64,000 nt of DNA from a bacterium (GTDB lineage: Bacteria; Patescibacteriota; Minisyncoccia; Moranbacterales; UBA2206). Below the pieces are notes generated by a model. The model was not told the origin of the DNA, made no database searches, and saw nothing but the letters and a program-made list of their open reading frames with translations. Positions 6,107-53,216 of this stretch are shown piece after piece (the stretch's first letter is position 1; each line of letters opens with the position of its first letter). Where the stretch lies: NCBI GenBank assembly GCA_043725085.1, contig JAYSLY010000014.1, forward strand, positions 2,748 through 66,747. The letters run 5' to 3'. The translations under genes and the position numbers were made by a program.

Positions 6107-6625
6107 TTATAAAAACCTTTTAATAAGTTCAATATGTCCCATCTCCGCTTGCATTATCGCGCCAAAAAACTTGCGCACATGTTCTTCTGATGCTTCGACT
6201 GCAAATTTTTTATACAGCTCAACAGCATGATCTTCCAACTCGATTGTTTTTTTGAAATTCTCCAAATCATCACTGGAACAATTTTCCGCTTTTATTTCCG
6301 GCATTGTAATGTTCAAAAGTTTGGTTGCGATAATCGCGTGCTCCAATTCCACTTTCGCCAAGCGCTTATACATTTTTACGATCTTATATTCCTTCGCTTC
6401 CCCCGCCATGCAAAGATAAATTGCATTTGCCCGTGTTTCCAGCGCCAATGTTTCCATGAGATTTTTTTTGGAAAGCTCGCTAATTTCAGTTTTAATTTCC
6501 GCTATCGGCTCGGCCTGCGATCCGTTTTTGATAAAATTTCCCTTTGCTCCGCAAAAAGGACAATCACTCGGCCGCTCTTCGCCAATATAGGCATCACCGC
6601 AAATTTCACAGATATATAGTTGCAT
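6107..6625 (-). CDS. rubrerythrin-like ferritin-fold protein with N-terminal rubredoxin-like zinc ribbon
   Basis: An N-terminal CEICGD...CPFCGA motif is followed by E..H diiron-type helices (ELEHAI, EMGHIE), a domain order reversed from canonical rubrerythrin. Confidence 0.6.
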   Translation of the reverse strand: MQLYICEICGDAYIGEERPSDCPFCGAKGNFIKNGSQAEPIAEIKTEISELSKKNLMETLALETRANAIYLCMAGEAKEYKIVKMYKRLAKVELEHAIIATKLLNITMPEIKAENCSSDDLENFKKTIELEDHAVELYKKFAVEASEEHVRKFFGAIMQAEMGHIELIKRFL

Positions 6626-20485: not shown

Positions 20486-20495
20486 CTTCTCTTTT

Positions 20496-22763
20496 CTATT
20501 TAGCTTTATTAGCGAGAGCTCTCCCTCTTTGCTTTTTCCAGGCATAGCCCAAATATGCAATGCAGCAAAGAAGAGTTAGGCCTGAGACAACTACTCCGTA
20601 ATTAAAATATTTTGCCGGTTTGAAATATAATGTCAACTCCAAATCTATTGAGCCATCAGGATTTTCTTTGTAATCACTCTTAGGGAAGTTTTTTCGGATA
20701 TCTTGCGGATCAATTGTCCAGCCGTTGGCATAATCAAAGACCAAATCGTGCGATCCGCTGACAAATGTCCTGTCATCCGGCGTGAAATGCAATTCCCAGA
20801 GCTTATGATATGGATCCAAAAATACCAACTTTTCTTTTTCCGCCAGGTTGCTAATTTTAATTTGATACGCGGAGCTGGAAATTTTTTCATAGCTCACTTG
20901 AGAAAAATCATGCGGAACTTTTTCAATCGTATTTGTCAGGTATATTTTTTCATTATCAAATTGATCATTTATCCTATAGAGCGAATAACGCTTCCCAAAA
21001 TCACGCACTTTGTCACCCAAAACAACATCAAAAAGATCCTTTTGCTGAGCATTGTAGAGCACACTTTTATAGAAATAGCTTTGTTGCAAGTCCGGCGAGA
21101 TATCATTATTAACAATGATATATTTAACATTCATCCCCTGCATGAATTTGCCCACACTCGCGTAGTCCCTGTCTAAAATTAAGTTTTGCAAATAAACATT
21201 AAATTTTCCAAAGCTCATAAAGCCCGCAAAATCAGAAGTGTTTGCTAAAAACTGCAGCGGTGAAGTGCCGGCATAATAATGATTATCCAAATTCTTATCT
21301 TGAATCAATGTATAGCCCGCGCGGTTCATCGGCAACCAAAGATAGCGCGATGCTTCATGATTATTTTTTAGATAATCCAAAAGGTCATAGAAATCGGCAT
21401 TAAAATCTTTGATTGTATTGTGCGTATTTTTCGTTGTCCAAATCGGACTCTCATAGTAATCACCAAATATAAACGGCTTAGCGCCTAGGATTGTAATCAA
21501 AAAAATGCTAACCAGGACAATTTTCTTAATTAAAATTTTATCCAAATTCTCAAAAAATATCTTCAAACTGATCGCCAGCAAAAAAGCATAGCTAAAAGCA
21601 AGCGCCAAGCCAAACTTATCATGCATATTGCGAAACATCGAAAATCCCGGGATGTTGGTGTTGAGCCAAAGAAAAACCGACGTGCCCCAAGAACTGACAT
21701 GGGCAGTAAAAAAGAATAACCCGATCACCCAAGCTGCCAGAGATGCGATAAACAAACCACGCCTGTCTCGATTGGATTTACTGGCATAAAAAGCTCCCAA
21801 AAAAACAATTAGCAAAAAAATCAAATTCAAGGAAAAAAACTTAAGATTCCAATCTCGATAAATTCCATAATTCGCCCAATGAGAAGTTTCCTGAAGTTGC
21901 TTATGAAAAAGATTGAACATGGGATACATCAGCTGATTATGCCGAGAAACATCCATAATAATCCCATTATTATCCTCTCTAAATTGCGAGGAGGTTACGC
22001 TAGATATAGCATCTCCACTATTGTCGGAGCTAAACGGCGCATAAACAAAGTGGACCAGCCAATAAAAATTCACGAGTACCGCCAGGGATAAAAAAATGAC
22101 CACGGCTTTGGCAAATACTTTCTTATTCTTTAGAAATACATAAAAAACTAACGGGGATGTGGAAATAATCAAAGCCATTAGCCATGGGGTCGTCCACAAA
22201 ACAACGCTGAACAAAAAACTCACAATAGCGGCTGTGACCAAATAGATATAGTTTTTTTTCAAGACAGCCTTGATGAATAAATAAAATAACAAGGGAAAAA
22301 CAGAAACCAGATACACTGAAAAAAGCTGAAGACTCCAGACAGTGAAAAAAGAAAAGGTGGAAAATAAATAAAAAAGACCGGAAAATATTTTAATAAAAAA
22401 ACTATCCCAGTCATCATCCGTGATAAACAGGCCAAGAGAAAGATAGAAAAATAAAAAACCTCCGGCAAGATTGAGACCGAATAAGAGCGATTGGGTGTCT
22501 AAAAAATAAAATGCCCATTTTACCATTCCAATAAAAGTCAAAAATGGGATTGCAAATTGAATTGGGAAATATGACCCCAGCGAACCAGCCGAATTATCTG
22601 AAATAATGCTATTCCTGTAACTCGAAATTTGTTCAAAAGGAAATTGGTAGTATAGTTTTCCATCATCACCTCCAACACGAAAAAAACCATGATTCCAAAA
22701 AAATGGCACTAAAATAAGCAAAAATGCGCAAACTATCAGGATGAGGTTCTGTTTTTTTCGCAT
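20496..22763 (-). CDS. large polytopic membrane protein (possible GT-C/YfhO-like) with C-terminal TM anchor
   Basis: The 755-aa ORF has more than 10 TM helices in its N-terminal half, a soluble domain, and a terminal TM followed by a basic tail (...YAWKKQRGRALANKAK). Confidence 0.4.
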   Translation of the reverse strand: MRKKQNLILIVCAFLLILVPFFWNHGFFRVGGDDGKLYYQFPFEQISSYRNSIISDNSAGSLGSYFPIQFAIPFLTFIGMVKWAFYFLDTQSLLFGLNLAGGFLFFYLSLGLFITDDDWDSFFIKIFSGLFYLFSTFSFFTVWSLQLFSVYLVSVFPLLFYLFIKAVLKKNYIYLVTAAIVSFLFSVVLWTTPWLMALIISTSPLVFYVFLKNKKVFAKAVVIFLSLAVLVNFYWLVHFVYAPFSSDNSGDAISSVTSSQFREDNNGIIMDVSRHNQLMYPMFNLFHKQLQETSHWANYGIYRDWNLKFFSLNLIFLLIVFLGAFYASKSNRDRRGLFIASLAAWVIGLFFFTAHVSSWGTSVFLWLNTNIPGFSMFRNMHDKFGLALAFSYAFLLAISLKIFFENLDKILIKKIVLVSIFLITILGAKPFIFGDYYESPIWTTKNTHNTIKDFNADFYDLLDYLKNNHEASRYLWLPMNRAGYTLIQDKNLDNHYYAGTSPLQFLANTSDFAGFMSFGKFNVYLQNLILDRDYASVGKFMQGMNVKYIIVNNDISPDLQQSYFYKSVLYNAQQKDLFDVVLGDKVRDFGKRYSLYRINDQFDNEKIYLTNTIEKVPHDFSQVSYEKISSSAYQIKISNLAEKEKLVFLDPYHKLWELHFTPDDRTFVSGSHDLVFDYANGWTIDPQDIRKNFPKSDYKENPDGSIDLELTLYFKPAKYFNYGVVVSGLTLLCCIAYLGYAWKKQRGRALANKAK

Positions 22764-23042: not shown

Positions 23043-24058
23043 TTATTTTCTTTTCTTTTTCTGCGCCCCTAGCACTTTTTTTATTTCACGATCAAAATCA
23101 GAAACATAATCCATATCTTGCTTCACATGATATTTTTCATATTCACCGAGCGCCAAACTTTCCGCCACTTCGTGACTAATTTTCCCTGCATTCATCAAGA
23201 TTTCATATTCGGTAAATTTAAGAAAAGCATTAAGTTTAGCCACCCAATCTTTCATTGTCATTGCCCTGCCTCGAATCGCTTGCATTTCAGCGTAGTCTAG
23301 GTACATATTCCCAATGCGATTTAAGTGCTCAAGCTCTTTTTTAGCAAGATAGTTTTTGGCAATTACCACGTCACTTGGCATAATTTTCCCCTTCGGAGAC
23401 CGTTGCCAAGAAGTCAGCCCCATTTTTTCTTTCTTGCTACTCACACGCTCTGTAATAATCTCCGCCGCCGTTTTTCCGGTAATAGCAAAATGCAGCTTAT
23501 TTTGGACTGTCGCAAAGAATTTTTTACTTTCATAAGCTTTAGGCGAGTAATCAATTGCCGTTGCATAAATATCGGTAATTTTTTGATAAATCCTTCGCTC
23601 ACTGGTGCGAATATCTTTTATTTCTTCATACAGATCTTCGAAATACCTAGCACTAAAGCGAGAACCATATTTCATCCTATCAATATCCAGTGCATAGCCT
23701 TTATGGATATAATTTTTCAAAATTCCAGTCGCCCACTTGCGAAATTGCGTGCCTCGCTCAGAATTTACCCGATAACCAACAGCAATAATCGCTTCGAGAG
23801 AATAAAATTTCGTCTTGTAGTTTTTCCCATCCCTAGCAGTTATTAAGAAATCCTTAATAACTGAACCTTCATCCAATTCCTTCTTCCTAAATACGCTTTT
23901 TAAGTGCATATTAACATTTGGCACCGTCGTATCAAAAAGCTCCGCCATACGTTTTTGTGGCAACCAAATATTTTCCTCAGAATATAGCACCTCAATGTTT
24001 ACTGAGCCTTCCGGTGTTTGATAAAAGGCGATCTGATCATCCGGCAATTTGTTTTTCA
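23043..24058 (-). CDS. RhuM-family (virulence-RhuM/Fic-DOC-related) DNA-binding protein
   Basis: The conserved block FYSLEAIIAVGYRVNSERGTQFRKWAT is typical of PF13310 family members. Confidence 0.65.
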
Positions 24059-24097
24059 TATTTTTTCTTTTAGTCTTATCATACTGATATAATAACA

Positions 24098-26779
24098 CTA
24101 AACTATTTTCCGGTCAAGCTTTTTTTGTTTGCGCCTCTTTTTCCAGTCATAAACTAAATACCCAATGCACGCTAGCAATGTCGACAAAGATATCGCCAAG
24201 CCTATATAAAAAAGTCTCTGCGGCCAAAATTCCACCACCATTTCAAAATCATACGTCCCGTCGGGATTCCTAATACATTTAATATTGCCACCAGCACAAA
24301 CTTGATTTGTATCAATCACCCAAGAATTAGCATAGCCATTGGCTGTCAGATGATTGGCATTATTTTCAATCGGACGCCGAAACCAGGTCTCCCAAAAATG
24401 CCCGTTTGGCAAATTATCATTCTGAATTGTGCCTTGAAAATTTTTGGACACAAAGTCAATATTATATTTTTCCGCATAATCCAACTGCTCCTGCCCGCTT
24501 GCCCCGTGATCGTCAGCAGACGATTTTACGGGGTCGGCCCATTTTTTATGTTCGATCGTTTTTTCCTTTCCATCCCCCAGTGTCGTCACATAACCATTGT
24601 CAAGATCATTCTGCAATTCATCTTTTGTCGCCTGATCCTCCGCATTACCGTCTAATGTTTTATATTTGCTTAAGTTGTCATTCCCGCGTAGGCGGGAATC
24701 CACTCCTTGATTTACTAAATAGCTTTTCCATCCATCATGAAAACTTTCAGAAAATACTAGTGGGAAAACTCCGCTTGCACCATGCACCCGCACGCGATAT
24801 TTGGTCGGATTGATTTTTTTGAATTCCAAAGTTGGCGACACCACGCCACCTTTATCTACACAATTATTATTACCGGAATCACTGCTATTTTGATTATTAC
24901 TACTCTTTAATTTTTCCAGAACATTCTCTCGTCCAACATTTTGCCCTGCAAAGAATACTGCTGAACGAGTTTGCCAATCGGGGCTAGAAAGAATTTTTGG
25001 CAAGTCATCAATGGTTCTTTGTGAAATTATAGAATTTTGAGAAGTGTAAAAAAATGCAGCTTGCGAATTGTTTATCTTGTACACATTAAAGTAGCTGTTG
25101 TCTTCAATTTTTGTAATCAAATTGTTTTTTTCGTAATACTCAATCTTGCCCATTGTTTGTGCAACAAATTGATCTGCTACGTCTTTATGAAAAATAATAT
25201 ATTTAATACCCAGGAGATCAACAAAAGGAATAAGCCACCCGGAATTCTCTTCATTCTGCTCATTCCAGATCTTACCATAATTCCAGTTACCAAAAGCTTG
25301 TGGGGCATTCATTTGCACCACTGGTTGATTAAATAACTGGATAGTCGGATCAGATCCAATCGCTTTCCACTTGGGAAAATTAATCCAGCCGATAGAGTTA
25401 AGCACATTATAGGGGGCGCTAAAAAGTCTAAAGTCCAATCTTCTCATCGCCAATCTATTACTCAATGCATAATATTCGTCAGGAATTTTTACTATATAGG
25501 CGTACTCGCTTGATTTATAATCCTTACCAATATCGATACCCATATAATTAGTTAGCAGCTTACCCTGAAAAGCTGGATATAGCGGAACAGTGGTAAAAAA
25601 TAAAAACAAAACGCTAACAACATAACTAGTTTTTTTATTTTCAATACTCCCTAAAAACAGCAGGATTACAATGAGCATAAAAAATGGAAGAAAAATCAAA
25701 GTCTTGTCTAGACTTCGAATGGAAGAAAAAATCGGATTTCCGCCAAAAATTTCCATAACTGCCTCCTTACTTAAGATACCCTTGCCCTTGTTAATCAAAA
25801 AAATTGCAAAAAAAACCAAGCTAGCAAAAATAGCAACGATTTTAGTTTTTTCGTGTAAATGCTTTTTACGAATGGCAATGATAAAAAAAATAAAAAGAGT
25901 CATTCCGGGCAAAAGAGCAGCTATTGAATATATTTTCGTCATCCCCAAAATATCATCAGAAAAAAACCACAAACCCCTAAAGTCCAATGCCTGCCAGAAT
26001 ATCCATTCATCTAGATTAAAATAACCGCCGCCGCCAGAAAAATTACTAACCATATTGAGTAGCCCGGGTATCTGAGGAATAATAGCTATAAAGCTAGTTA
26101 AAAAGAAAAGACCATAAAAAATCAAAGCTTTTTTGAAAAATAAAACAAACTTTATAGTTTTTCTATGCAAAAACAACACCAGTAGCAAAAAGACGAACAA
26201 AAAGATGTTTAGGGATATAAAAAAAGCCGCATTACCGAAAGCAATATTTGCAACAAACAAAACTATGCCCAAAATCGACAAGTTCACATCAATCAGCTTG
26301 CTTTTTAAGAAATACTTATAAGTCAAAGCAAAAATTGGCGGAATAACTAAATAAAGAAAAGAGAATGGCGTAGGAGAAATAAATTTATTAAAAGTGTAAA
26401 TATTCAATGCATAAGTAAAGGAAAGCACATTGATAATAAATTCTTTTTTAGCAGAAAAAAAAGCTCTAGAAAATATTCTAAAAGATAAGAAGCTGCTCAA
26501 TAAAAAAAAGGCTGAATAAAAAATGAGAATGTGATTTACCCCTACTATTTCCTGAATAATCGCAAAAAAAATAAAATAAGGAAAATAGCTGAATAGAATA
26601 GAAAAACCGCCAAGTCCATAACTTGCCCAATTATATTTTAGAGTTTCCAGGACAAAAGAAAAATTTAGGATCTGAGCAAAATCGCCACTTAAAAAAATAT
26701 ACCCAGCTGGAATATTATTAGCAATGCTGATAGCAAAAATTGCAAACAAAAAAATATAGGTATTTTTCCGCAAAATCAT
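24098..26779 (-). CDS. very large polytopic membrane protein (possible GT-C/YfhO-like) with C-terminal TM anchor
   Basis: The 893-aa ORF has many TM helices and the same C-terminal TM-plus-basic-tail architecture (...YLVYDWKKRRKQKKLDRKIV) as 20496..22763. Confidence 0.4.
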   Translation of the reverse strand: MILRKNTYIFLFAIFAISIANNIPAGYIFLSGDFAQILNFSFVLETLKYNWASYGLGGFSILFSYFPYFIFFAIIQEIVGVNHILIFYSAFFLLSSFLSFRIFSRAFFSAKKEFIINVLSFTYALNIYTFNKFISPTPFSFLYLVIPPIFALTYKYFLKSKLIDVNLSILGIVLFVANIAFGNAAFFISLNIFLFVFLLLVLFLHRKTIKFVLFFKKALIFYGLFFLTSFIAIIPQIPGLLNMVSNFSGGGGYFNLDEWIFWQALDFRGLWFFSDDILGMTKIYSIAALLPGMTLFIFFIIAIRKKHLHEKTKIVAIFASLVFFAIFLINKGKGILSKEAVMEIFGGNPIFSSIRSLDKTLIFLPFFMLIVILLFLGSIENKKTSYVVSVLFLFFTTVPLYPAFQGKLLTNYMGIDIGKDYKSSEYAYIVKIPDEYYALSNRLAMRRLDFRLFSAPYNVLNSIGWINFPKWKAIGSDPTIQLFNQPVVQMNAPQAFGNWNYGKIWNEQNEENSGWLIPFVDLLGIKYIIFHKDVADQFVAQTMGKIEYYEKNNLITKIEDNSYFNVYKINNSQAAFFYTSQNSIISQRTIDDLPKILSSPDWQTRSAVFFAGQNVGRENVLEKLKSSNNQNSSDSGNNNCVDKGGVVSPTLEFKKINPTKYRVRVHGASGVFPLVFSESFHDGWKSYLVNQGVDSRLRGNDNLSKYKTLDGNAEDQATKDELQNDLDNGYVTTLGDGKEKTIEHKKWADPVKSSADDHGASGQEQLDYAEKYNIDFVSKNFQGTIQNDNLPNGHFWETWFRRPIENNANHLTANGYANSWVIDTNQVCAGGNIKCIRNPDGTYDFEMVVEFWPQRLFYIGLAISLSTLLACIGYLVYDWKKRRKQKKLDRKIV

Positions 26780-38160: not shown

Positions 38161-38688
38161 CTATTTATCCCTCACCACCATCCCGCCAGCCAACGTTTTT
38201 TGATTCAGCGCTTTTTCGATTCGTTCCAGCTTAGCTTCAATTTGTTTTCTCCAAGATAAATCCCAACCCTTCTTTTCGTAATTTTCTTCCAGATCTTTTC
38301 TGAGCCTTTGCAAGTCATCTTCGATGTGCGAAAGATAATCAAGAATTTGAGCTTGTCCGGATTTCAGATCTGACACATCTACTTTCAAAACAGACACATC
38401 GGATTTTAGGTCAGCTACATCAGTTTTCAGAATAGAAACATCAGATTTCAAAACTGACACATCAGATTTTAGAATTGACACGTCGGATTTGAGAACAGAA
38501 ATATCTGCCTCCATATGATCCATCTTCCCCTCCATGCGATCCATACGATCATCCAATTTACCAATAGACCGATCCAATCCTTGATGCCCTTCTGCTATCA
38601 ATTTCATATCACTCCGCATATCTTCCAGCAGAATTGTTAAGTAGTCCTTCTTTCTATCCTCTTCTTTTTTAGCTTTTTTTATTGCCAT
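38161..38688 (-). CDS. small coiled-coil protein with seven tandem heptad repeats
   Basis: The repeat (I/V)SVLKSDVS x7 is encoded by 21-bp tandem DNA repeats at ~38380..38510. Its N-terminal ~45 aa is homologous to ORF 47730..48140. Confidence 0.5.
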   Translation of the reverse strand: MAIKKAKKEEDRKKDYLTILLEDMRSDMKLIAEGHQGLDRSIGKLDDRMDRMEGKMDHMEADISVLKSDVSILKSDVSVLKSDVSILKTDVADLKSDVSVLKVDVSDLKSGQAQILDYLSHIEDDLQRLRKDLEENYEKKGWDLSWRKQIEAKLERIEKALNQKTLAGGMVVRDK

Positions 38689-38727
38689 AAACTTAAGTTA
38701 AGATTCGTAACCGGCATTTTTCCATTA

Positions 38728-38761
38728 TAGCACATCCTGGCTATTGCTTCCAATTTTCCCG
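38728..38761. repeat. 34-bp direct repeat copy 1 (TAGCACATCCTGGCTATTGCTTCCAATTTTCCCG)
   Basis: It is identical to 40207..40240, and the pair flanks the AlbA_2-domain gene. Confidence 0.85.
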
Positions 38762-38800
38762 CCAAAAAAGTATTTCGACTCCTCATCCGATCCGCCACTT

Positions 38801-40195
38801 TTAGGACTGCAAAACCTCCCAATGTCCGCCTTTGTCCGGACCAATTCTTTTGATTATACCTTTCTCCTTTAACACACTAAGATTCCATTCAACTCCTCTT
38901 CGGCTAAGACCGGTTTTCATTATCAGCTCTTTTGTGGTAATAGCAGGAGCTTCCCTGATCATATCGACTATTTTCTCCACAGTTTTCTCCACAGTTTTCT
39001 CCCTAGCTTTCTCTCCAAATTCTTTACTCAAAATAGTAAACCTAAAACCTCCGGAACTCTCTTCGATTAAAGGCTCAGCCAGTCCATATTCTTTTATTTG
39101 TTCAATAGCCCGCTTAACCCCGCTGCCGTATCTTTCAATCAATCCAGCATCACGAAAAATTTCCGCTACCAGTTTGTTGCGTGGTTTCGATTCACGTTTT
39201 CCCTCCTTAACATCTTCAATGGTAAAATCAAAAGGCAACCAACCACTATTCCAAAGCACGAGCTTGTCAAAATAAACTCGAAATTGGGAATGAGTCCCTT
39301 CTTGATAATCCCGATGAATGATCGCGTTGATCACTATTTCTCGGATAGCGTCAATGGGATATTGCCACCTTTCTTCCCGTTGTGGACGACCGGTTATAAT
39401 AAATTCTTTCAAGATATACGTCTTGATAAAATCCATCACTTCATCCGCCTCGCTAATTAAATCCTGCCGAATTATTTTGTTTTTCTTAATCGTGATATCA
39501 TCCTGGAATAAGCCTATTTGGATATCGGTTTGCCGAGAAGGAACTTTTGAAAATAACAGCAAACTGGCATTGGCTGGATAGTCATTACCATCTTCTTCCA
39601 CTATTAAAGAATATTTGCGCAAAAAATTGAAAGCACCACCCAAATCAATCCCTAGATTGCTTTCGATCATACCCTTGACTTTCTCAATTTTTTCCAAATC
39701 TAAATCATCCAAACTTTTTTCTTTATTGGGATAAAAATCCCAACTGGAGTTTTTTGTCCGCAGATACATCTCGGATATTTCCTGCAAAGTCAAAAGATGA
39801 TTACCATTATTTTTTCGCAAATAAAAACGCCCCTTGAAAGACACGGGCTTCAAGGGAAATTCAGCTACCTCAAAAATAACAACCGTTTTATTGTCAATTA
39901 TTCGATTTTCGATTTCAACACTCAGAAAGGGTTGCGTTTTACTTCTGATTTCGCTAGCCCAAGACCCAATACTCTCCCGATTCAAGTCTATGCCCTTAAT
40001 TTTTCTATTATCGGATACGCCAATAATCACCACCCCGCCTCGATGATTCGCCATAGCAACCAAGCTGATAATTACCTCATCGGAAAAAGATGATTTCAAT
40101 TCAACATTCACACTCTCCCCGTTTTTTATCAGTTCTTTTATTGTTTTTGTGTCCATAAACCAAAATAAAAAATCAGCCAGTAGCTTTTCTTTCAA
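38801..40195 (-). CDS. AlbA_2 (Schlafen-like 'divergent AAA') + HATPase_c_4 + C-terminal wHTH putative nucleic-acid-binding ATPase/regulator
   Basis: The 464-aa ORF shows the RecG-C-terminal-like/AlbA_2 N-domain pattern (VELKSSF...ANHRGGVVIIGV), an HATPase_c_4-like middle region, and a C-terminal winged HTH (ITTKELIMKTGLSRRGVEWNLSVLKEKGII). Confidence 0.6.
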   Translation of the reverse strand: MKEKLLADFLFWFMDTKTIKELIKNGESVNVELKSSFSDEVIISLVAMANHRGGVVIIGVSDNRKIKGIDLNRESIGSWASEIRSKTQPFLSVEIENRIIDNKTVVIFEVAEFPLKPVSFKGRFYLRKNNGNHLLTLQEISEMYLRTKNSSWDFYPNKEKSLDDLDLEKIEKVKGMIESNLGIDLGGAFNFLRKYSLIVEEDGNDYPANASLLLFSKVPSRQTDIQIGLFQDDITIKKNKIIRQDLISEADEVMDFIKTYILKEFIITGRPQREERWQYPIDAIREIVINAIIHRDYQEGTHSQFRVYFDKLVLWNSGWLPFDFTIEDVKEGKRESKPRNKLVAEIFRDAGLIERYGSGVKRAIEQIKEYGLAEPLIEESSGGFRFTILSKEFGEKAREKTVEKTVEKIVDMIREAPAITTKELIMKTGLSRRGVEWNLSVLKEKGIIKRIGPDKGGHWEVLQS

Positions 40196-40206
40196 CTTTT
40201 CTATTC

Positions 40207-40240
40207 TAGCACATCCTGGCTATTGCTTCCAATTTTCCCG
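40207..40240. repeat. 34-bp direct repeat copy 2
   Basis: It is identical to 38728..38761 and overlaps the last 7 codons plus the stop of the GT2 gene 40220..41254. Confidence 0.85.
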
Positions 40241-41254
40241 GCTCATTTCCGCTTGATTGAAAATTCCCGCCACTTTCCCCCAGCCATAGACGAAAAGTGT
40301 CACCCAGCAAGCGGGAACGTGAAAAAACCAGGCCAAATCCCTTTTGCGCTTGTAGCCGATGAGAGCTTGTCCAAGCAAGGGGAAAATGAAGATGGTATAA
40401 AAAATAAATTTCAAAAGGCCAAGAGACGATTCTCCGCCAATCTCGAATTTGCTCCAATCAAAAACGCGGGATTTGTTTTTTTTGTGAAAAGTATAATCTT
40501 TGATCCGTCTTTGTTGTTTTCTGATAAATTTACCAAAATCCGCTTCGCAAAAGGTGTGAATGATACCTACCTTGACTTTGGCAATATGAATCAACCCTTT
40601 TTCGGCGATTTCTTTGGCAATAACATCGATATCAAAAAGATACTTTCCCGTGTTAATTTCTTGCAAAAAAGCAGTGCGAAAGATTGTTCCATTTGCTCCA
40701 ACTGTCGGAATTCCCGCCTTGGTCAGTTTTATCTTAAGATATCCTGCAAAATCTTCTTCTTCGTGTGGCACAGCGGTCCATTTTTTGGTGAGATAATTCC
40801 AACGATCATAGTTACCCAAAAAAAGGCACACCGGATCATTCATCCCGATGAGCGCGCAGTAACGCTCAATGTAGCCGCCTTCTAAGCGGTAGGTATATTT
40901 GATTGGCTCAGATAGTTTTATTTCCGAATCAGAAAAAGGCGCAACCATTTTTCTAAGCCACCCCGAATCCGGCAAAAAATTATCCGAATCCAAAATCAGC
41001 ACCAATTCATTTTTTACCTCTTTGAGCGCAACCGCCTTGCCGGATTCTCCGGTTTTGAGCGGATTGGAAAAAACCCGTCCGCCATATTTTTTAGCAATCG
41101 CGATAGTTTTGTCAGTTGATCCGCCATCACCGACAACCAATTCGATCCGGTCTTGGGGATAATCTTGCGAAGTCAGGCGCTTGAGACATTCCTCGAGCAC
41201 TGCCTCGGCATTGAGCGTCGCCATGCAAACACTGATTTTTGGTAGATTTTCCAT
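40220..41254 (-). CDS. glycosyltransferase family 2 (Dpm1/ArnC-like)
   Basis: It has the GT-A N-terminus (ISVCMATLNAEAVLEECL; VVGDGGSTD) and a C-terminal TM region. Confidence 0.75.
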   Translation of the reverse strand: MENLPKISVCMATLNAEAVLEECLKRLTSQDYPQDRIELVVGDGGSTDKTIAIAKKYGGRVFSNPLKTGESGKAVALKEVKNELVLILDSDNFLPDSGWLRKMVAPFSDSEIKLSEPIKYTYRLEGGYIERYCALIGMNDPVCLFLGNYDRWNYLTKKWTAVPHEEEDFAGYLKIKLTKAGIPTVGANGTIFRTAFLQEINTGKYLFDIDVIAKEIAEKGLIHIAKVKVGIIHTFCEADFGKFIRKQQRRIKDYTFHKKNKSRVFDWSKFEIGGESSLGLLKFIFYTIFIFPLLGQALIGYKRKRDLAWFFHVPACWVTLFVYGWGKVAGIFNQAEMSRENWKQ

Positions 41255-49102: not shown

Positions 49103-50680
49103 TTATATGTTTGTTTTTATTTTTTTATTTTTCACAAAATACACCACACATATTATGATAGCATACCAAACCACCATGCCTTGCCACGAAAGGCCGACCT
49201 CCAGCGCGGCATATTTCAAACTTGCTGCGTAGTTGATGACATCTACCTCATAGCGTAAAGGCAAATAGGTTAGCCAGGAAAAAACAATGGCGAGCGGCCA
49301 AAAAAGAAAACTGATTGCTACCGCCAAAAATCCCAAAAGCATTGTGAGCGGTAAAATTGGCAAAACCAAAACATTCGTCAGCGGAGAGATGAGTGAAAGT
49401 TTTTGAAAATTAAAAAGAATAATCGGCAACACAAAAACTTGCGCGCTCAGTGACATAAACAGAATTTCCGCAATGAAAGAAAAAACGGCCGGATATTTTT
49501 TCAACTTTTCACCAAAATATTTTTCGAACAGCGGATAGAAATAGACAATGCCGATTGTCGCCAGAAATGACAGCTGAAATCCGACGTCATAGCGAAGAAG
49601 GAGCGGATTCCAAAAAAGCATCACGGCGGCGGCAAAAATAATTGCATTTTGGGCATTAGCCAGCCTTCCATTTTTCATTGCATAAAGGAGCAGCGTGCCC
49701 ATCACACCGGCGCGAATGGCTGAAGCGGGAAAACCGGTCATTAAAATAAAAATCCAAATGCCCAAAAGCGCAAACCAAAACGCTTGCCGACGCCAGAGAC
49801 CCAAAAACAATCCCAAGAGCATCAAATATTCCGCCACAATCGTGATGTTATACCCTGACACTGCCACAATATGCGTCATGCCGGTACGTGAAAAATTATC
49901 TTGAATACTTTTAGAAAGCTTATCATCCCCGCCAATAATCAAGCCTTCCAAAAGTCCCGCTTCCGGCGCGGGAATGAGCAATGAAATCTTGGCGCTGAAT
50001 TTGTTTTTCAAACTAATCACTGCGCCATAAAAAATATTTCCCAAATTTTTTCGTCCGCCAGCCGGCGGATTTTCAATTTGCGGTTTTTGGCAAAGATAGA
50101 AAATATCATCTCGCGCCAAATAGGCCACGTAGTCAAAATCCGAGTCTTCTCTGTTTTTTGGTTTGGTTAAGTTGCAAGTCAACTTCAACTCCTCGCCATA
50201 GGCATAACTTTCATAGATACTTTCTTGAATGAGCACGTTGTAGTTTTCACCTTCGGGAGCAAAGATGATTTCTTGCACTTTTTCCTTGATTTTCGGTTCG
50301 CGTGCAATCATCCCTTGTCCGGAAAAATCAATTTCCTCTGGCGCGCTCTCGAATGAATTTATTTTATCGATTTTTTTCTGAGTCAGATGAAAGCCAAAAA
50401 CAAACATAATGAGCGCGCCGCAAATCAGCATCACCATTTTATTTTTATAGAAAACAAAAAGAGCGCTAAGCGTAAAAAGCAAAAGTATATATGAAAATGC
50501 CGTGCCAAAAATAGCGGGATAGAAAAATGAAGCGCAAAAAACTCCAAAAATAAAACTCAAAGAAAACAGCAAAAATATTTTCGCTTTGGTCATTTTTGAC
50601 ATGAGTTTATTATAGCAGAAATTATCCAGACCCCTAAAAACAGCTATACTTGACTTTGCATACCAATGCATCTTATCCAA
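49103..50680 (-). CDS. comEC: ComEC N-terminal OB (DUF4131) + competence membrane domain (5' fragment of a frameshifted comEC)
   Basis: It contains the competence-domain motif (TGMTHIVAVSGYNITIV). It ends ...FVKNKKIKTNI* inside the A-rich run AAAAATAAAAAAATAAAAAC, and a +1-nt change there joins it to the downstream MBL frame. Confidence 0.7.
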   Translation of the reverse strand: MDKMHWYAKSSIAVFRGLDNFCYNKLMSKMTKAKIFLLFSLSFIFGVFCASFFYPAIFGTAFSYILLLFTLSALFVFYKNKMVMLICGALIMFVFGFHLTQKKIDKINSFESAPEEIDFSGQGMIAREPKIKEKVQEIIFAPEGENYNVLIQESIYESYAYGEELKLTCNLTKPKNREDSDFDYVAYLARDDIFYLCQKPQIENPPAGGRKNLGNIFYGAVISLKNKFSAKISLLIPAPEAGLLEGLIIGGDDKLSKSIQDNFSRTGMTHIVAVSGYNITIVAEYLMLLGLFLGLWRRQAFWFALLGIWIFILMTGFPASAIRAGVMGTLLLYAMKNGRLANAQNAIIFAAAVMLFWNPLLLRYDVGFQLSFLATIGIVYFYPLFEKYFGEKLKKYPAVFSFIAEILFMSLSAQVFVLPIILFNFQKLSLISPLTNVLVLPILPLTMLLGFLAVAISFLFWPLAIVFSWLTYLPLRYEVDVINYAASLKYAALEVGLSWQGMVVWYAIIICVVYFVKNKKIKTNI

Positions 50681-51671
50681 AATGATCCGTCTCCTTCAAC
50701 TTCTGCTGCAACTTCTTCCCATTTCCATGTCGCAACATTCCCAAATACGAAGTCAACCTTCCTGGATCGTAATTTCTTCGCATCTTTTTTATCATTCTTC
50801 TTTTGGTACTTGTCCTCAACACCCTGTGATCAGAAAAATTTACCCAACCCAGAAAATCCACACCAGAAGAAAAAGTTTTGATAAAAACTTTACTAGGATG
50901 CAGTTTTAATTTCAGTTTAGTTTCCAAAAAATCGGATATTTCAGGAATTAAACTCTCCAAATGGTTTTTATCTTCTGACAAAATCACAAAATCATCCGCG
51001 TAACGGATATAGTATTTGACTTTCAATTTATGTTTCATAAACTGATCGAATTTGTTCATGTAAATATTGACGAATAATTGCGAAGTTAAATTGCCCAGTG
51101 GCAATCCGACATTCGTCTTTCCTGGAGTTGCAAAACTTTCAATCACATTTTTCAAAAGCCAGATGATGTTTTCGTCCGGAACATGTTCGGCTAAAATGTT
51201 TTTGAGTATTTGATGATCAATATTGGCAAAGAATTTTCTGATGTCGCATTCCAGAATCCAGCAAGTTTTCGTATTATTTTGACTGACTTTCTGAAAATAT
51301 TTTCTAAACTTGTTAATTGCTTTATGTGTGCCTTTATTATTCCGGCAGGAATATGAATCAGCGATAAAAGTCTTGTCGAAAAAGGGATAGAGTTTTCGAT
51401 AGATGGCATGATGAAGGAGTCTGTCTTTAATGCAAGCTTTGTGGATGTCTCTCGGTTTGGGATCGTTGATTTTGAAAGCTTGATAGCTGCCGTGTTTGTA
51501 GGTATGATGAAGAAGCTCGTGGTGCAGTGAAAAGATGTTGTCCATGAGACAAAGAGAAAATTCCTGGACATCATATTTCTTCCTTTTGCCGTTTTGGAAT
51601 TCTTTCCAGGCCAAAAGTAAGTTTTCCAGGCTAATAATATCTTCAAAACTATGAGTCAGTTGAATTTTCAT
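50673..51671 (-). CDS. diversity-generating retroelement (DGR) reverse transcriptase
   Basis: The 332-aa ORF has RT motifs 1-7, with YIRYADDFVIL in motif 5. Motif 4 reads GLPLGNLTSQLFVNIYMN, the DGR-diagnostic (I/L)GNLTSQ form. There is no maturase or endonuclease domain. Confidence 0.85.
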   Translation of the reverse strand: MKIQLTHSFEDIISLENLLLAWKEFQNGKRKKYDVQEFSLCLMDNIFSLHHELLHHTYKHGSYQAFKINDPKPRDIHKACIKDRLLHHAIYRKLYPFFDKTFIADSYSCRNNKGTHKAINKFRKYFQKVSQNNTKTCWILECDIRKFFANIDHQILKNILAEHVPDENIIWLLKNVIESFATPGKTNVGLPLGNLTSQLFVNIYMNKFDQFMKHKLKVKYYIRYADDFVILSEDKNHLESLIPEISDFLETKLKLKLHPSKVFIKTFSSGVDFLGWVNFSDHRVLRTSTKRRMIKKMRRNYDPGRLTSYLGMLRHGNGKKLQQKLKETDHFG

Positions 51672-51744
51672 AGCAAAAATTTTAATCCGTTAACGCCCCC
51701 CCCCAAGACTTCCGCAGGTTTTTGAAAAAGTAAAATCGCTCTAT

Positions 51745-52080
51745 TTGGCTTGGTATGAATATTATCAGATTTTACCAACCACCCATCGATATACTCTGGG
51801 ACAAAAAATCGATAAATACTTTACGGAAATTATTGAATCGATTGCCATTGCTGCTTTTCTGAAACCGGAAGAAAAAATACCGTATGTCCGGTTGGCTATT
51901 CGCAAATCCGATGTTTTGAAAATTTTTCTGAATATTCTTTGGGAAACAAAATCTTTGGATGACAAGAAATATATTTTGCTTTCGGATAAATTAAATTCTG
52001 TCGGTCGCGATCTTGGTGGCTGGAGTGGAAGCCTTACAAAGAAAAACTCTCCCGATTCAAAACAGGGAGAGCGAAAATGA
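51745..52080 (+). CDS. avd: Avd-like accessory variability determinant (four-helix-bundle protein), TTG start
   Basis: The 111-aa ORF is basic and helical, and its C-terminus (VGRDLGGWSGSLTKKN) resembles Bordetella phage Avd (VGRILGSWIARVNRKG). It lies between the RT and TR but on the opposite strand. Confidence 0.55.
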   Translation: MAWYEYYQILPTTHRYTLGQKIDKYFTEIIESIAIAAFLKPEEKIPYVRLAIRKSDVLKIFLNILWETKSLDDKKYILLSDKLNSVGRDLGGWSGSLTKKNSPDSKQGERK

Positions 52081-52089
52081 AAATAGTTT

Positions 52090-52211
52090 CGGGGCGACGA
52101 ACGCAAACCCATCGTCATCGTTCCACCTGTTGTCAGGCCTGTCATACGCAGTGTTCAACCACCGACCATCATCGTTGCGGTTGGCGTTGAGCAGGTTCGG
52201 ATCGCCGTCAG
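52090..52211 (-). repeat. DGR template repeat (TR) including IMH*-like 3' end
   Basis: It aligns to 52577..52699. All 15 mismatches over 101 aligned nt are TR adenines (minus-strand sense) opposite non-A bases in VR. The GC-rich end reads TTTGCGTTCGTCGCCCCG. Confidence 0.85.
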
Positions 52212-52475
52212 TTTTGCGCGATATGCCTTCCTTGCCACTGCCCGTTGAATACTCTCCGGGCTGAATCGAATTCCGCATCTTAAATGCGCTAGCATACCAC
52301 ACCAAGTATCTTCATTTTTTTGAAGTTTCTGCATACGCCACTTTATCCGAAACCGTGATCGCGGATAATCTCGACGTATGGATACTGGATTCGGAAGCGG
52401 GAAACCTACCTACCGGCAGGCAGGCGTGATCGCCCGCATTCTTCCCTACTACCTTTTTTATTTTACCAAATTTAA

Positions 52476-52521
52476 GAGCCTTGTGCGAGAATTCAACACA
52501 AGGCTCCGTTTTTAATTTTTT
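52476..52521. terminator. strong hairpin with T-run between TR and VR (terminator-like, plus-strand sense)
   Basis: A perfect 10-bp stem GAGCCTTGTG...CACAAGGCTC with an 11-nt loop is followed by CGTTTTTAATTTTTT on the plus strand; the minus-strand side is weaker (TTAAATTTGG). Confidence 0.45.
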
Positions 52522-52522
52522 A

Positions 52523-52563
52523 GGACTGAGTTTTTGAGGACTAGTCCTCAGTAGCTGAGTCCT
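52523..52563 (-). promoter_or_regulatory. hairpin/cruciform immediately 3' of VR/IMH (DGR homing-associated structure)
   Basis: A perfect 14-bp palindrome GAGGACTAGTCCTC (52536..52549) overlaps the target stop codon and is nested within AGGACT...AGTCCT arms. Confidence 0.6.
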
Positions 52564-53216
52564 GAGCACTGACTTGCGGGGCGACGAACGCAAAACCCAA
52601 CGTCACCGCACCACCTGTAGTCAGGCCTGTCAAACGCAGAGTCCAACCACCGACCACCATCGCGGCGGTAGGCGCTGAGCAGGCGCGGATCGCCGTCAGA
52701 ATCTTTGATGGGCTCGTGCATTACCACGACCCACCAGAGACCCATCGCTTCGATTTCCTCATCCGCGAATTTCTCCCGGATAAGACAGGCTACTTCGGCA
52801 TTCGGCTTCTCGAGCTTCCGCTCATCGGCTTCGGCGCGAATGTTCTTGGTAATGCGATCGCTATCTTTCCACAGATTGCCCTTGAGGACAATGATGTGGT
52901 AGGACACTCCATTCGTCGGCTTGAAGTCTCCCGACATAAGGACGCTCTTCGCGTAATCACCGACTCTGAAACCCTTCTTCTCGAGTCTTTTGATCCACTC
53001 GAGTCCGGTCGTTCCGTCGGAAGTCATGATACCGAGATCGATCACGCCGTCTTGTTCCTTCCATGAGCGCACGACTTCAGAAACGATCCATTCTTTGGAA
53101 TTGATCCTGCGAACAGCTTCGTTCGCGTCGGCGATTCCCATCTGACTCATGATGGTTTTCACCATCGCATTGAGTTTTCCCGGCATAACTTCCGCAATTG
53201 CAAATCCGTCTGACAT
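52548..53216 (-). CDS. DGR target protein with C-terminal variable region (minimal C-type-lectin-like VR)
   Basis: The 222-aa ORF ends in the VR-encoded tail ...GDPRLLSAYRRDGGRWLDSAFDRPDYRWCGDVGFCVRRP. The TR translation is GDPNLLNANRNDDGRWLNTAYDRPDNRWNDDDGFAFVAP, with AAY(Asn) codons at the variable sites. No signal peptide is evident. Confidence 0.75.
   Translation of the reverse strand: MSDGFAIAEVMPGKLNAMVKTIMSQMGIADANEAVRRINSKEWIVSEVVRSWKEQDGVIDLGIMTSDGTTGLEWIKRLEKKGFRVGDYAKSVLMSGDFKPTNGVSYHIIVLKGNLWKDSDRITKNIRAEADERKLEKPNAEVACLIREKFADEEIEAMGLWWVVVMHEPIKDSDGDPRLLSAYRRDGGRWLDSAFDRPDYRWCGDVGFCVRRPASQCSGLSY
52577..52699 (-). repeat. DGR variable repeat (VR) with IMH at 3' end
   Basis: See the TR entry for the alignment. 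The IMH reads TTTTGCGTTCGTCGCCCCG in minus sense and differs from the TR copy by one T. Confidence 0.85.

What the first reader, a model, noticed from the sequence alone, without database searches (positions are those of the whole stretch)
38728..40240. Single-gene insertion (AlbA_2/HATPase_c_4/wHTH protein) flanked by 34-bp perfect direct repeats inside the glycan locus
The repeat TAGCACATCCTGGCTATTGCTTCCAATTTTCCCG occurs at 38728..38761 and 40207..40240. With the preceding ATT(A/C) the match extends to ~38 bp with one mismatch. The right copy encodes the last seven codons plus the stop of the GT2 gene (...SRENWKQ*). The left copy is a displaced duplicate of that gene end, now lying after the inserted gene. 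Between the repeats lies a single 464-aa ORF with a Schlafen-like AlbA_2 N-domain, an HATPase_c_4-like region and a C-terminal winged HTH. This architecture is common for abortive-infection/defence-associated or regulatory 'divergent AAA' proteins. The geometry looks like site-specific insertion of a one-gene cassette with duplication of the attachment sequence, but no recombinase is nearby.
Basis: seen in the sequence. Interest (0 to 1): 0.65.

Follow-up and report, generated by a model that had tools for sequence, protein, structure and literature searches.

The report
Defence gene inserted with duplicated target
A single Schlafen-type defence-like gene has been pasted into a sugar-coat gene cluster of a Candidate Phyla Radiation (CPR) bacterium, copying 44 bases of its landing site, and relatives of this gene show the same poorly understood "insertion with long target duplication" across many phyla.

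Summary
A 34-nt perfect direct repeat (44 nt with 2 mismatches) brackets one gene on the minus strand of a Candidatus Moranbacteria contig.

The right copy is the native 3' end of a GT2 glycosyltransferase gene: six codons (RENWKQ, not seven), the stop and 23 nt. This C-terminus is conserved in homologues. The left copy is a displaced duplicate in front of a coiled-coil gene. A relative (GT2 86% identical) has GT2 followed directly by that gene.

The cargo is a prokaryotic Schlafen of the HisKinase-HTH class, with the catalytic Ex4ExK motif intact.

The repeat is not an att site or a terminator. Homologous genes elsewhere are flanked by repeats of 22-139 nt with unrelated sequences, each derived from the local neighbours. 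By one uniform test, 12 of 116 such genes carry a flanking repeat, against 6 of 313 neighbouring genes. No recombinase or terminal inverted repeats are present.

This matches "insertion with long target duplication", described for restriction-modification genes, whose mechanism is unknown. Here the duplicated segment carries the best promoter-like site in the region, so both genes may keep a promoter.

Verdict: a new member of a known kind, of moderate interest.

The parts
40197..40240 (-). Right (gene-proximal, native) copy of the duplicated target. It holds the last 6 codons and stop of GT2 plus 23 nt downstream. The perfect core is 40207-40240.
   Evidence: The C-terminal coding part is conserved in GT2 homologues.
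38718..38761 (-). Left (displaced) copy of the duplicated target, lying between the inserted gene and the coiled-coil gene. The perfect core is 38728-38761.
   Evidence: It contains a GT2 3'-end fragment with no GT2 body attached.
38762..40196 (-). Unique inserted segment of 1,435 nt: 39 nt, then the gene, then 39 nt. If the duplication is really only 34 nt, the insert extends to 40206.
   Evidence: The size and tightness match the mobile unit defined from 92-94% identical genes in unrelated contexts.
38801..40156 (-). Cargo gene: a prokaryotic Schlafen (AlbA_2) nuclease-like domain, a HisKinase/GHKL-like HATPase_c_4 domain and a winged HTH; 451 aa. The catalytic-type motif is E14-x4-E19-x-K21.
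   Evidence: Pfam. The motif is invariant in 30 homologues. Model pLDDT is 84.9. Fold hits are 3LMM, SLFN14/12/5/11, the SAMD9 tRNase and histidine-kinase catalytic (CA) domains. The class is described in PMC13056530.
40220..41254 (-). Resident GT2 glycosyltransferase gene. Its 3' end is part of the duplicated target, and the gene stays intact.
38161..38688 (-). Resident coiled-coil gene (21-nt repeats coding for heptads), downstream of the insertion. Its orthologue directly follows GT2 in L003/L004.
38724..38753 (-). Promoter-like site inside the left copy: TTGGAA-N18-(TGc)TATAAT, 10 of 12 matches plus an extended -10. It lies 37 nt upstream of the coiled-coil ATG.
   Evidence: this is a consensus match only. 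A comparable TGGTATAAT sits upstream of the orthologue in L003.
40203..40232 (-). Promoter-like site inside the right copy: TTGGAA-N18-(TGc)TAGAAT, 9 of 12 matches plus an extended -10. It now faces the inserted gene, 46 nt upstream of its ATG.
   Evidence: this is a consensus match only.

Best explanation
A bare one-gene cassette entered the junction between GT2 and the coiled-coil gene of a glycan-biosynthesis cluster in a Candidatus Moranbacteria genome. The cassette encodes a prokaryotic Schlafen protein of the HisKinase-HTH class, a probable RNA-cutting defence or conflict gene.

The entry was not site-specific. It was an 'insertion with long target duplication'. 44 bp of the target (34 bp if the last 10 belong to the insert) ended up on both sides of the insert.

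Shown by the data: the duplication; which copy is native; the gene-order-level empty site; the absence of a recombinase and of terminal inverted repeats; and recurrence of the same signature around homologous genes in other phyla, with different repeats each time.

Inferred: the two target strands were opened at staggered positions about 44 nt apart, or on two sister duplexes. A short linear or circular DNA carrying little more than the ORF was joined without homology, and gap filling copied the stretch between the two joints. The DNA may have arrived by natural transformation, since a ComEC homologue is encoded 9 kb away.

Also inferred: the duplicated stretch spans the resident promoter. The upstream copy (TAGAAT) would drive the newcomer while the downstream copy (TATAAT) keeps driving the coiled-coil gene, and GT2 keeps its own stop. 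A long duplication therefore makes insertions near gene ends harmless, which would explain why the surviving examples overlap gene ends.
For: The repeat is real and unique.

GT2 ...SRENWKQ* is conserved in L002, L003 and L005, so the right copy is native and the left copy is a fragment. L003/L004 (GT2 86% identical; same upstream genes) have GT2, then 115 nt, then the coiled-coil orthologue at 69% identity.

The closest homologues of the cargo are only 69% and 65% identical and sit in unrelated contexts. GT2 relatives are 80-87% identical and none has the gene.

A second clear case is L010. A 93-nt repeat brackets a 59%-identical homologue, and its downstream copy is the native, conserved 5' end of the next gene. 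More cases come from at least 8 phyla, with repeats of 22-139 nt and unrelated sequences. The uniform test gives 12 of 116 against 6 of 313, Fisher p = 3.8e-4. At least 4 of the 6 control positives were other solitary conflict-type genes (AAA_14/DUF4143, counted twice because L007 and L009 are the same locus in two samples; PDDEXK_2; Bro-N).

Genes 92-94% identical at the DNA level in unrelated contexts share homology only from 0-72 nt before the ATG to about 25 nt after the stop, with sharp edges.

No integrase or transposase is present. ComEC lies at 49103-50680. The best promoter-like site of the region lies in the repeat.

Literature precedent: restriction-modification (RM) genes of types I-IV inserted with 46-423 bp target duplications and no other mobile element. 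One 46-bp repeat overlaps 15 bp of a gene's 3' end, and most cases are in naturally competent species (PMC2853133). A single-gene mcrA homologue shows the same pattern (PMC2993543).
Against: No base-level empty site was found. The best comparison genome is a different species, and its intergenic sequence after the GT2 stop has diverged. The rest of the source genome could not be searched for the 34-mer.

The joining mechanism is entirely inferred. No microhomology is visible at the two junctions.

The consistently tight, ORF-sized unit is not what random fragment capture predicts. It hints at a dedicated mechanism.

The promoters are consensus matches only. About 90% of family members show no detectable flanking repeat under the uniform test.
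Confidence: 0.68

Rival explanations
1. The cassette is itself a minimal autonomous mobile element. Its own protein (nuclease-like Schlafen domain, GHKL-type ATPase and DNA-binding wHTH) makes or exploits staggered breaks and inserts its own gene. The result would be long target duplications of variable length, as the IS1634/IS1549 group of IS4 elements does with a DDE transposase (the IS comparison is from my own knowledge).
For: The signature recurs around this gene family in many phyla. The transferred unit is the bare ORF with sharp edges in independent contexts; for example L016 and L095 share homology only from -65 to +11. No other mobility gene is present. Furuta et al. raised the same idea for RM genes, namely that DNA breakage by the cargo is involved.
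Against: No terminal inverted repeats or conserved ends exist for a protein to recognise. In L059, L103 and L021 the ORF even borrows an ATG from the duplicated target. Schlafen nucleases are described as RNases that cut tRNA, and DNA cleavage is not shown. Unrelated solitary genes (AAA_14/DUF4143, PDDEXK_2, Bro-N) show the same flanking repeats, which points to a shared, cargo-independent route. I saw no near-identical multi-copy burst within one genome; the data could only detect this where two loci came from the same sample.
Confidence: 0.13
2. Site-specific integration. The 34-44 bp would be an att core recognised by an integrase supplied in trans or since lost, and the element would carry a copy of the GT2 3' end so that the gene is restored.
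For: The geometry resembles integrase-type insertion into a gene's 3' end, with restoration of that end. The repeat length is within the range of att duplications discussed in PMC2853133.
Against: No recombinase lies in the 1.4-kb insert or within 20.5-53.2 kb of the window. Related cassettes are flanked by repeats with no common sequence or length, each derived from the local neighbours, which may be 3' ends, 5' ends or whole intergenic regions. The 26-mer core is absent from 241 million metagenome records and from the viral collection.
Confidence: 0.07
3. RNA-mediated (retro) insertion. A transcript of the gene would be copied into DNA at a nicked target by a reverse transcriptase (RT) acting in trans, giving a transcript-sized insert and a target duplication of variable length.
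For: The inserts are transcript-sized, with 0-72 nt in front of the ATG. The duplication lengths vary. An RT with a 107-nt template/variable-type repeat pair (a diversity-generating retroelement, DGR) lies 10-13 kb away, and a DGR sits next to the closest homologues. The unique insert starts about 7 nt after the -10 hexamer of the duplicated promoter.
Against: The 3' flanks (-4 to +40 nt) are too short for a terminator, and none folds here. DGR reverse transcriptases are known for retrohoming of their own template RNA rather than for copying other transcripts into new sites (my own knowledge), and DGRs are common in CPR genomes (my own knowledge), so the co-occurrence carries little weight.
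Confidence: 0.04
4. No dedicated insertion event. The left copy would be the last remnant of a second GT2 paralogue, or of a larger tandem duplication, that was mostly deleted. Alternatively the structure arose by recombination between two strain haplotypes at the conserved GT2 end.
For: The junction downstream of GT2 is a rearrangement hotspot, with six different downstream neighbours in relatives. Some other loci (L034, L096) show longer, more diverged duplicated 3' ends of sugar-nucleotide dehydrogenase-like genes (80 to over 139 nt at 86-92% identity). These could be paralogue remnants.
Against: It needs a deletion that left exactly the part of GT2 plus spacer that abuts the coiled-coil gene in the inferred ancestor. 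The identity also runs 23 nt past the stop into non-coding DNA, with a 34-nt perfect core. It does not explain why the same geometry recurs around this particular gene family.
Confidence: 0.07

Closest known systems
Insertion with long target duplication of restriction-modification genes (Nobusato et al. 2000, Gene 259:99, cited in PMC2993543; Furuta, Abe and Kobayashi 2010, PMC2853133)
   Same: The insert is a short segment of conflict-type genes with no integrase, transposase or inverted repeats. It is flanked by direct repeats longer than 30 bp that are single-copy in genomes lacking the insert. The repeat length and sequence differ from case to case. The repeat can overlap the 3' end of the neighbouring gene (46 bp overlapping 15 bp of HI0105, compared with 44 bp overlapping 21 bp of GT2 here). 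A single-gene example exists (an mcrA homologue in Burkholderia). The pattern is linked with natural competence, and ComEC is encoded in this window.
   Different: The cargo is a Schlafen-type protein, not a restriction or modification enzyme. The host is a CPR bacterium. The empty site is shown only at gene-order level in another species. Here the duplicated piece coincides with a promoter-like site. The published cases reach 423 bp, whereas I saw 22 to about 139 bp.
Prokaryotic Schlafen (pSlfn) defence proteins, HisKinase-HTH architecture (PMC13056530, Nat Microbiol 2026)
   Same: An N-terminal Slfn/AlbA_2 domain carries the Ex4(E/D)xK motif (E14, E19, K21), followed by a HisKinase-like domain and an HTH. 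This is the second most common of the 55 pSlfn architectures (19.2%). The model resembles SLFN14/12/5/11 N-domains and the SAMD9 tRNase.
   Different: Defence was demonstrated only for the DUF262 and Ig-like fusions, not for this architecture. Here the gene sits in a glycan cluster rather than an obvious defence island. That paper does not mention mobility: the term 'mobile' occurs 0 times.
IS1634/IS1549-type insertion sequences of the IS4 family with long, variable-length target duplications (from my own knowledge; the 'transposon of Mycoplasma' is mentioned in PMC2853133)
   Same: Both give target duplications of tens to hundreds of bp whose length varies between insertions of the same element.
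   Different: Those elements encode a DDE transposase and have terminal inverted repeats. This cassette has neither.
Integrase-mediated integration into the 3' end of a gene (prophages and integrative elements at tRNA or protein-coding genes)
   Same: A direct repeat includes the 3' end of the target gene, and that gene stays intact.
   Different: There is no recombinase, and no att core is shared among related cassettes.

Membership tests
Insertion with long target duplication (Furuta/Kobayashi criteria, PMC2853133) | The inserted segment is flanked by direct repeats longer than 30 bp. | tested here: met
   34 nt perfect, 44 nt at 95% identity.
Insertion with long target duplication (Furuta/Kobayashi criteria, PMC2853133) | The repeat corresponds to a single-copy sequence in a related genome that lacks the insert (empty site). 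| tested here: inconclusive
   At gene-order level the criterion is met: L003/L004 have GT2 directly followed by the coiled-coil orthologue. The 21 coding nt of the repeat align to the single GT2 3' ends of relatives. The 23 non-coding nt have diverged, so there is no base-level empty site.
Insertion with long target duplication (Furuta/Kobayashi criteria, PMC2853133) | No integrase, transposase or other mobile element lies in or next to the insert, and the insert is shorter than 20 kb. | tested here: met
   The insert is 1,435 nt with one gene. Pfam scans of ORFs from 20.5 to 53.2 kb show no recombinase.
Insertion with long target duplication (Furuta/Kobayashi criteria, PMC2853133) | The repeat is not a dispersed genomic repeat. 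| tested here: met
   Only two copies occur in 64 kb. There are none in the fetched loci other than the same locus (L001), none in metagenome contigs and none in viral contigs. The rest of the source genome was not available.
Insertion with long target duplication (Furuta/Kobayashi criteria, PMC2853133) | The cargo is a restriction-modification system. | tested here: not met
   The cargo is a pSlfn-HisKinase-HTH protein. The match is therefore to the mode of insertion, with a new cargo class.
Prokaryotic Schlafen, HisKinase-HTH class (PMC13056530) | A Slfn/AlbA_2 domain (PF04326) longer than 100 aa. | tested here: met
   PF04326, E = 1.2e-18, residues 27-134 of the 464-aa ORF.
Prokaryotic Schlafen, HisKinase-HTH class (PMC13056530) | The catalytic Ex4(E/D)xK motif. 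| tested here: met
   E14-SVNV-E19-L-K21 in the 451-aa protein. E14, E19 and K21 are invariant in 30 homologues.
Prokaryotic Schlafen, HisKinase-HTH class (PMC13056530) | Fusion to a HisKinase-like domain and an HTH. | tested here: met
   HATPase_c_4 with E = 3.3e-19 and HTH_24 with E = 3.3e-6. Fold hits include histidine-kinase catalytic (CA) domains and winged-helix proteins.
Prokaryotic Schlafen, HisKinase-HTH class (PMC13056530) | Structural similarity to Schlafen nuclease domains. | tested here: met
   Foldseek: 3LMM at 9e-23, SLFN14 at 1e-4, SLFN12, SLFN5 and SLFN11 N-domains, and the SAMD9 tRNase. Model pLDDT is 84.9.
Prokaryotic Schlafen, HisKinase-HTH class (PMC13056530) | Protects against phage, or cleaves tRNA. 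| not testable with these tools
   This needs experiments. The paper showed defence only for other fusion types.
Integrase-type site-specific integration | A recombinase gene in the element or adjacent to it. | tested here: not met
Integrase-type site-specific integration | The same att core flanks related elements at other sites. | tested here: not met
   The flanking repeats of homologous cassettes are unrelated in sequence and range from 22 to 139 nt.
DDE transposon with long variable target duplication (IS1634/IS1549 type) | A transposase gene and terminal inverted repeats. | tested here: not met
   No transposase domain was found. No inverted repeats lie at the insert ends. No conserved ends appear in five pairs of near-identical cassettes.

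The most novel reading that the evidence does not exclude
pSlfn-HisKinase-HTH genes may be self-propagating one-gene mobile elements. The same may hold for other solitary 'ATPase plus wHTH' or nuclease genes such as AAA_14/DUF4143 and PDDEXK_2. On this reading the ORF, with almost no flanking DNA and no inverted repeats, is the transposable unit, and its own product (or a conserved host pathway it recruits) inserts it with long, variable target duplications that copy promoters or gene ends. This would be a transposition mode distinct from all known transposase and recombinase families, and the mechanistic answer to the 25-year-old 'long target duplication' puzzle.
Probability: 0.13. Interest if true: 0.85.

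Novelty: new member of a known kind. Interest (0 to 1): 0.55.

Why it matters
How naked defence genes move without any recombinase is an open question. "Insertion with long target duplication" was described for restriction-modification genes in 2000 and 2010 and has never been explained.

This window adds a clean case with a different cargo, a Schlafen-type gene, in a CPR bacterium. The follow-up shows that the same signature recurs around this very widespread one-gene family in many phyla (about 10% of copies). The transferred unit is essentially the bare ORF.

That gives a large natural set of junctions, including isolate genomes, on which the mechanism could be worked out. It also explains how such genes can land inside operons and gene ends without damage: the duplication restores the interrupted gene end and can hand a promoter to both genes.

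For annotation, short orphan fragments of gene ends next to solitary defence genes can be read as insertion scars.

Tried and rejected
- **Exact look-up of the GT2 product:** not on record. The gene caller used a shorter start; P0001 is that product.
- **Logan contig L001:** it starts inside the left repeat. This only shows a k=31 graph branch and cannot separate filled from empty sites.
- **Scans for the 26-nt core of the repeat:** Metagenome contigs and viral contigs gave 0 hits, so no strain-level empty site or second locus was found.
- **Terminator idea:** rejected. No terminator-like site lies in or next to either copy, and the fold z-score is -0.01.
- **Terminal inverted repeats:** none at the insert ends and none at the sharp homology edges of five cassette pairs. 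A 5-nt ACTGG/CCAGT pair in L016/L095 is too weak to count.
- **False positives of the flanking-repeat screen, set aside by inspection:**
  - Tandem paralogues of the cargo gene (L019, L119; L126 presumed from coordinates, not inspected).
  - Dispersed or hairpin repeats (L020, L036, L055, L168, L044).
  - Short-tandem-repeat arrays on both sides (L141, L121, L102, L101, L134, L107).
- **My first strict filter:** it was flawed because it required an exact 16-mer in both copies. One search replaced it.
- **L173:** fetched as a possible empty site for L010. It shows that the duplicated 5' end is the native N-terminus of that gene, but its upstream genes differ, so it is not a true empty site.
- **PADLOC:** it has no stand-alone model for this protein, only partial hits to a Schlafen-Argonaute model. 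NCBIfam gave nothing useful.
- **Junction microhomology:** none longer than 1 nt.
Full report
**The observation**

No shuffle produced two matches with up to three mismatches. Ungapped extension gives 44 nt with two mismatches, 38718-38761 and 40197-40240.

All genes here run on the minus strand. Read on that strand, the order is as follows:
- GT2 glycosyltransferase (41254..40220), ending ...A-E-M-S-R-E-N-W-K-Q-stop.
- The right repeat copy.
- One gene (ATG at 40156, stop at 38801).
- The left repeat copy.
- A coiled-coil gene (38688..38161).

The perfect core contains six GT2 codons plus the stop, not seven. The 464-aa ORF is a mechanical call from a TTG. The ATG at 40156 gives 451 aa, identical to database protein P0121 and in register with homologues.

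Among the 58 minus-strand ORFs of the window, this is the only one with a flanking repeat (score 36, next best 13).

**Which copy is original**

Close GT2 homologues (80-87% identical) come from Candidatus Moranbacteria and Moraniibacteriota, which places the window in a CPR (Candidate Phyla Radiation) bacterium. Their genes end with the same ...SRENWKQ-stop (L002, L003, L005). The right copy is therefore the native 3' end of GT2. The left copy is a 21-nt piece of coding sequence plus 23 nt of spacer, displaced behind the inserted gene.

In L003/L004 (GT2 86% identical, same two epimerase genes upstream), GT2 is followed after 115 nt by a 155-aa protein. That protein is 69% identical to the window's coiled-coil protein. 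This is the empty arrangement at gene-order level.

The other relatives have different genes after GT2:
- A hypothetical gene, then a lipase-like gene, then the coiled-coil gene (L002).
- A hexapeptide acetyltransferase (L005/L006).
- An amidohydrolase (L171).
- A GT1 glycosyltransferase (L172).

The junction is therefore a hotspot, and none of the relatives carries the inserted gene. The closest relatives of the inserted protein are only 69% and 65% identical. They sit in a quite different neighbourhood, with AAA_14/DUF4143 genes and a diversity-generating retroelement (DGR).

**The cargo**

Pfam gives SLFN_AlbA_2, HATPase_c_4 and HTH_24.

A 2026 paper on prokaryotic Schlafens (pSlfn) lists Slfn-HisKinase-HTH as 19.2% of 5,930 proteins and defines the catalytic motif Ex4(E/D)xK. 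It demonstrated phage defence for two other fusion types only (PMC13056530). The window protein has E14-SVNV-E19-L-K21, and these three residues are invariant in my alignment of 30 homologues.

An AlphaFold model (pLDDT 84.9) matches the following:
- The uncharacterised full-length homologue 3LMM (E = 9e-23).
- The N-domains of SLFN14, SLFN12, SLFN5 and SLFN11.
- The SAMD9 tRNase.
- Histidine-kinase catalytic (CA) domains.

PADLOC has only partial matches to a Schlafen-Argonaute model. Homologues occur on 130 plasmids, some beside type I restriction genes, and in 38 phage or satellite records.

The cargo is best read as a Schlafen-type, probably RNA-cutting, conflict or defence gene. Its function is not shown.

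**Not an att site and not a terminator**

No recombinase or transposase domain was found in the ORFs from 20.5 to 53.2 kb. No terminator-like site lies in or beside the repeat, and the stretch does not fold better than shuffles. The 26-nt core was absent from the metagenome and viral collections and from all other loci I fetched.

The decisive test was to look at homologous genes elsewhere. In L010, a 59%-identical homologue is bracketed by a 93-nt repeat at 95% identity. The downstream copy of that repeat is the true, conserved 5' end of the next gene, and the upstream copy is a displaced duplicate ending in a stop.

I then screened 163 loci from genome and metagenome collections. Further examples have repeats that are unrelated in sequence and are built from the local neighbours:
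- **L059:** 97 nt of intergenic region plus the ATG.
- **L024:** 57 nt.
- **L109:** 100 nt.
- **L167/L169:** 71 and 63 nt of upstream genes' 3' ends.
- **L057:** 53 nt of a downstream gene's 5' end.
- **L166:** 72 nt of a downstream gene's 5' end.
- **L147:** 71 nt.
- **L158:** at least 77 nt.
- **L096:** at least 139 nt.
- **L045:** 33 nt.
- **L021:** 39 nt, in a Sphingobacterium isolate genome.
- **L103:** 22 nt.

Under one uniform rule (both flanks at least 300 nt; unique, non-tandem repeat; score at least 22), 12 of 116 family members were positive against 6 of 313 neighbouring ORFs (Fisher p = 3.8e-4). At least four of the six control positives were themselves solitary conflict-type genes: AAA_14/DUF4143 (L007 and L009, the same locus in two samples), PDDEXK_2 and Bro-N.

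A shared att core is therefore excluded. The repeats are target duplications of variable length.

**The mobile unit**

Several pairs of family members are 92-94% identical at the DNA level but sit in unrelated contexts. In these pairs the homology starts abruptly 0 to 72 nt before the ATG. It stops abruptly between 4 nt before the end of the stop codon and 25 nt after it. There are no inverted repeats or common end motifs.

The window's insert fits this picture: 39 nt, the gene, then 39 nt. What moves is essentially the bare ORF. In L059, L103 and L021 the ORF even uses an ATG that lies inside the duplicated target.

**Comparison with what is known**

This is the geometry that Kobayashi's group named "insertion with long target duplication". 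[quoted passage not shown] In one case the 46-bp repeat overlaps 15 bp of the neighbouring gene's 3' end. Most cases are in naturally competent species, and the mechanism is unknown, with DNA breakage suggested (PMC2853133). A lone mcrA homologue shows the same pattern (PMC2993543).

The window meets the structural criteria except that the cargo is not a restriction-modification gene and the empty site is only at gene-order level. A ComEC competence homologue lies 9 kb away. I found no paper linking AlbA_2/Schlafen genes to this kind of mobility.

**How it most likely works**

Shown:
- The duplication.
- The polarity of the two copies.
- The absence of recombinase and element ends.
- The recurrence around this gene family.
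- The ORF-sized unit.

Inferred:
- The two target strands, or two sister duplexes, were opened about 44 nt apart.
- A short DNA carrying the ORF was joined without homology. No junction microhomology is visible.
- Repair synthesis copied the interval between the two joints.

The duplicated interval contains the best sigma-70-like site of the region: TTGGAA-N18-TGcTATAAT in the left copy and TGcTAGAAT in the right copy. It sits at the same distance from the coiled-coil start as a TGGTATAAT does in L003. If these sites are real promoters, the duplication gives the newcomer a promoter without taking it from the resident gene, and GT2 keeps its stop.

The same logic holds in L010, where the duplication rebuilds the interrupted 5' end of the next gene. 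A long duplication thus makes insertions near gene ends harmless, which would bias the survivors toward exactly the pattern seen.

The two mismatches between the copies both lie in or next to the -10 hexamer. Alternatively, the true duplication is 34 nt and the last 10 nt belong to the insert.

**Rivals**

- **Autonomous one-gene element:** attractive because of the tight unit and the recurrence. It lacks recognisable ends, and unrelated solitary genes share the signature.
- **Integrase acting in trans:** contradicted by the diversity of the repeats.
- **RNA-mediated insertion:** would fit transcript-sized inserts and variable duplications, and a DGR (a reverse transcriptase plus a 107-nt template/variable-type repeat pair) is nearby. 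However, the 3' flanks are too short for terminators, and this is not known DGR behaviour.
- **Paralogue remnant or haplotype recombination:** cannot explain the perfect non-coding part or the recurrence.

**Verdict**

It is a new member (new cargo class, new host group) of a known but mechanistically unexplained kind of gene mobility.

The survey result may be of more general interest than the single locus: this Schlafen family commonly carries the signature, and the unit is the bare ORF.

Noticed in passing
window 50673-53216: A reverse transcriptase gene (RVT_1; 50673-51671, minus strand) lies directly after ComEC. A 107-nt direct repeat pair at 86% identity (52105-52211 and 52593-52699) sits nearby, with one copy near the 3' end of a 222-aa ORF. 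This looks like a diversity-generating retroelement with template and variable repeats.
   Followed up: partly
window 23043-24098: A RhuM-family gene (Virulence_RhuM, E = 1e-101) sits alone between glycan-cluster genes. It is another solitary conflict-type gene. No flanking direct repeat was found (best score 11).
   Followed up: partly
window 17155-17198 and 18984-19027: A 44-nt exact direct repeat lies inside two adjacent large ORFs (16905-18683 and 18710-20560), presumably tandem paralogues. It is the only other long exact repeat in the window.
   Followed up: no
window 38360-38526: The coiled-coil gene contains about 8 tandem 21-nt units coding for heptads (DVSxLKS). Its orthologue in L003 has one unit fewer (a 7-aa gap), so the copy number varies.
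   Followed up: partly
window 38971-38994; L007 6177-6279: The linker between the HATPase_c_4 and wHTH domains of the inserted protein is made of 12-nt tandem units (EKTV x2 here; six or more units in the 69%-identical homologue). The linker length therefore varies through repeat slippage.
   Followed up: no
L007/L009 480-543 and 2145-2208; L046 377-3598; L023 5508-6706; L026 2865-3955: Other solitary genes show the same long flanking direct repeats. An AAA_14/DUF4143 ATPase has a 64-nt repeat whose first copy is the 3' end of the upstream giant Laminin_G_3 gene. Two tandem AAA_14/DUF4143 genes are each preceded by the same 50-69-nt sequence. A PDDEXK_2 'transposase' has a 91-nt repeat, and a Bro-N protein has a 52-nt repeat.
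   Followed up: partly
L010 3331-3376 versus 6351-6396: A 46-nt, 85%-identical copy of the 3' end of the Schlafen gene plus a GCTAGAAT promoter-like motif lies upstream of the wzt-like ABC transporter gene, next to an AAA_14/DUF4143 gene. It looks like a scar of an earlier or relocated cassette.
   Followed up: no
GT2 3' junction in L002, L003/L004, L005/L006, L171, L172 and the window: The position just downstream of this conserved GT2 gene carries six different gene contents in related Moranbacteria. L172 also has an AAA_14/DUF4143 gene between two GT2 genes, without a detectable repeat. The position is a local hotspot of gene turnover.
   Followed up: partly
L141, L121, L102, L101, L134, L107, L104: Several family members are embedded in arrays of short tandem repeats (for example GTTTCGG, CCTCAA and ATTCGT units) that are present on both sides of the gene. 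Whether these arrays are preferred targets or a by-product is unexplained.
   Followed up: no
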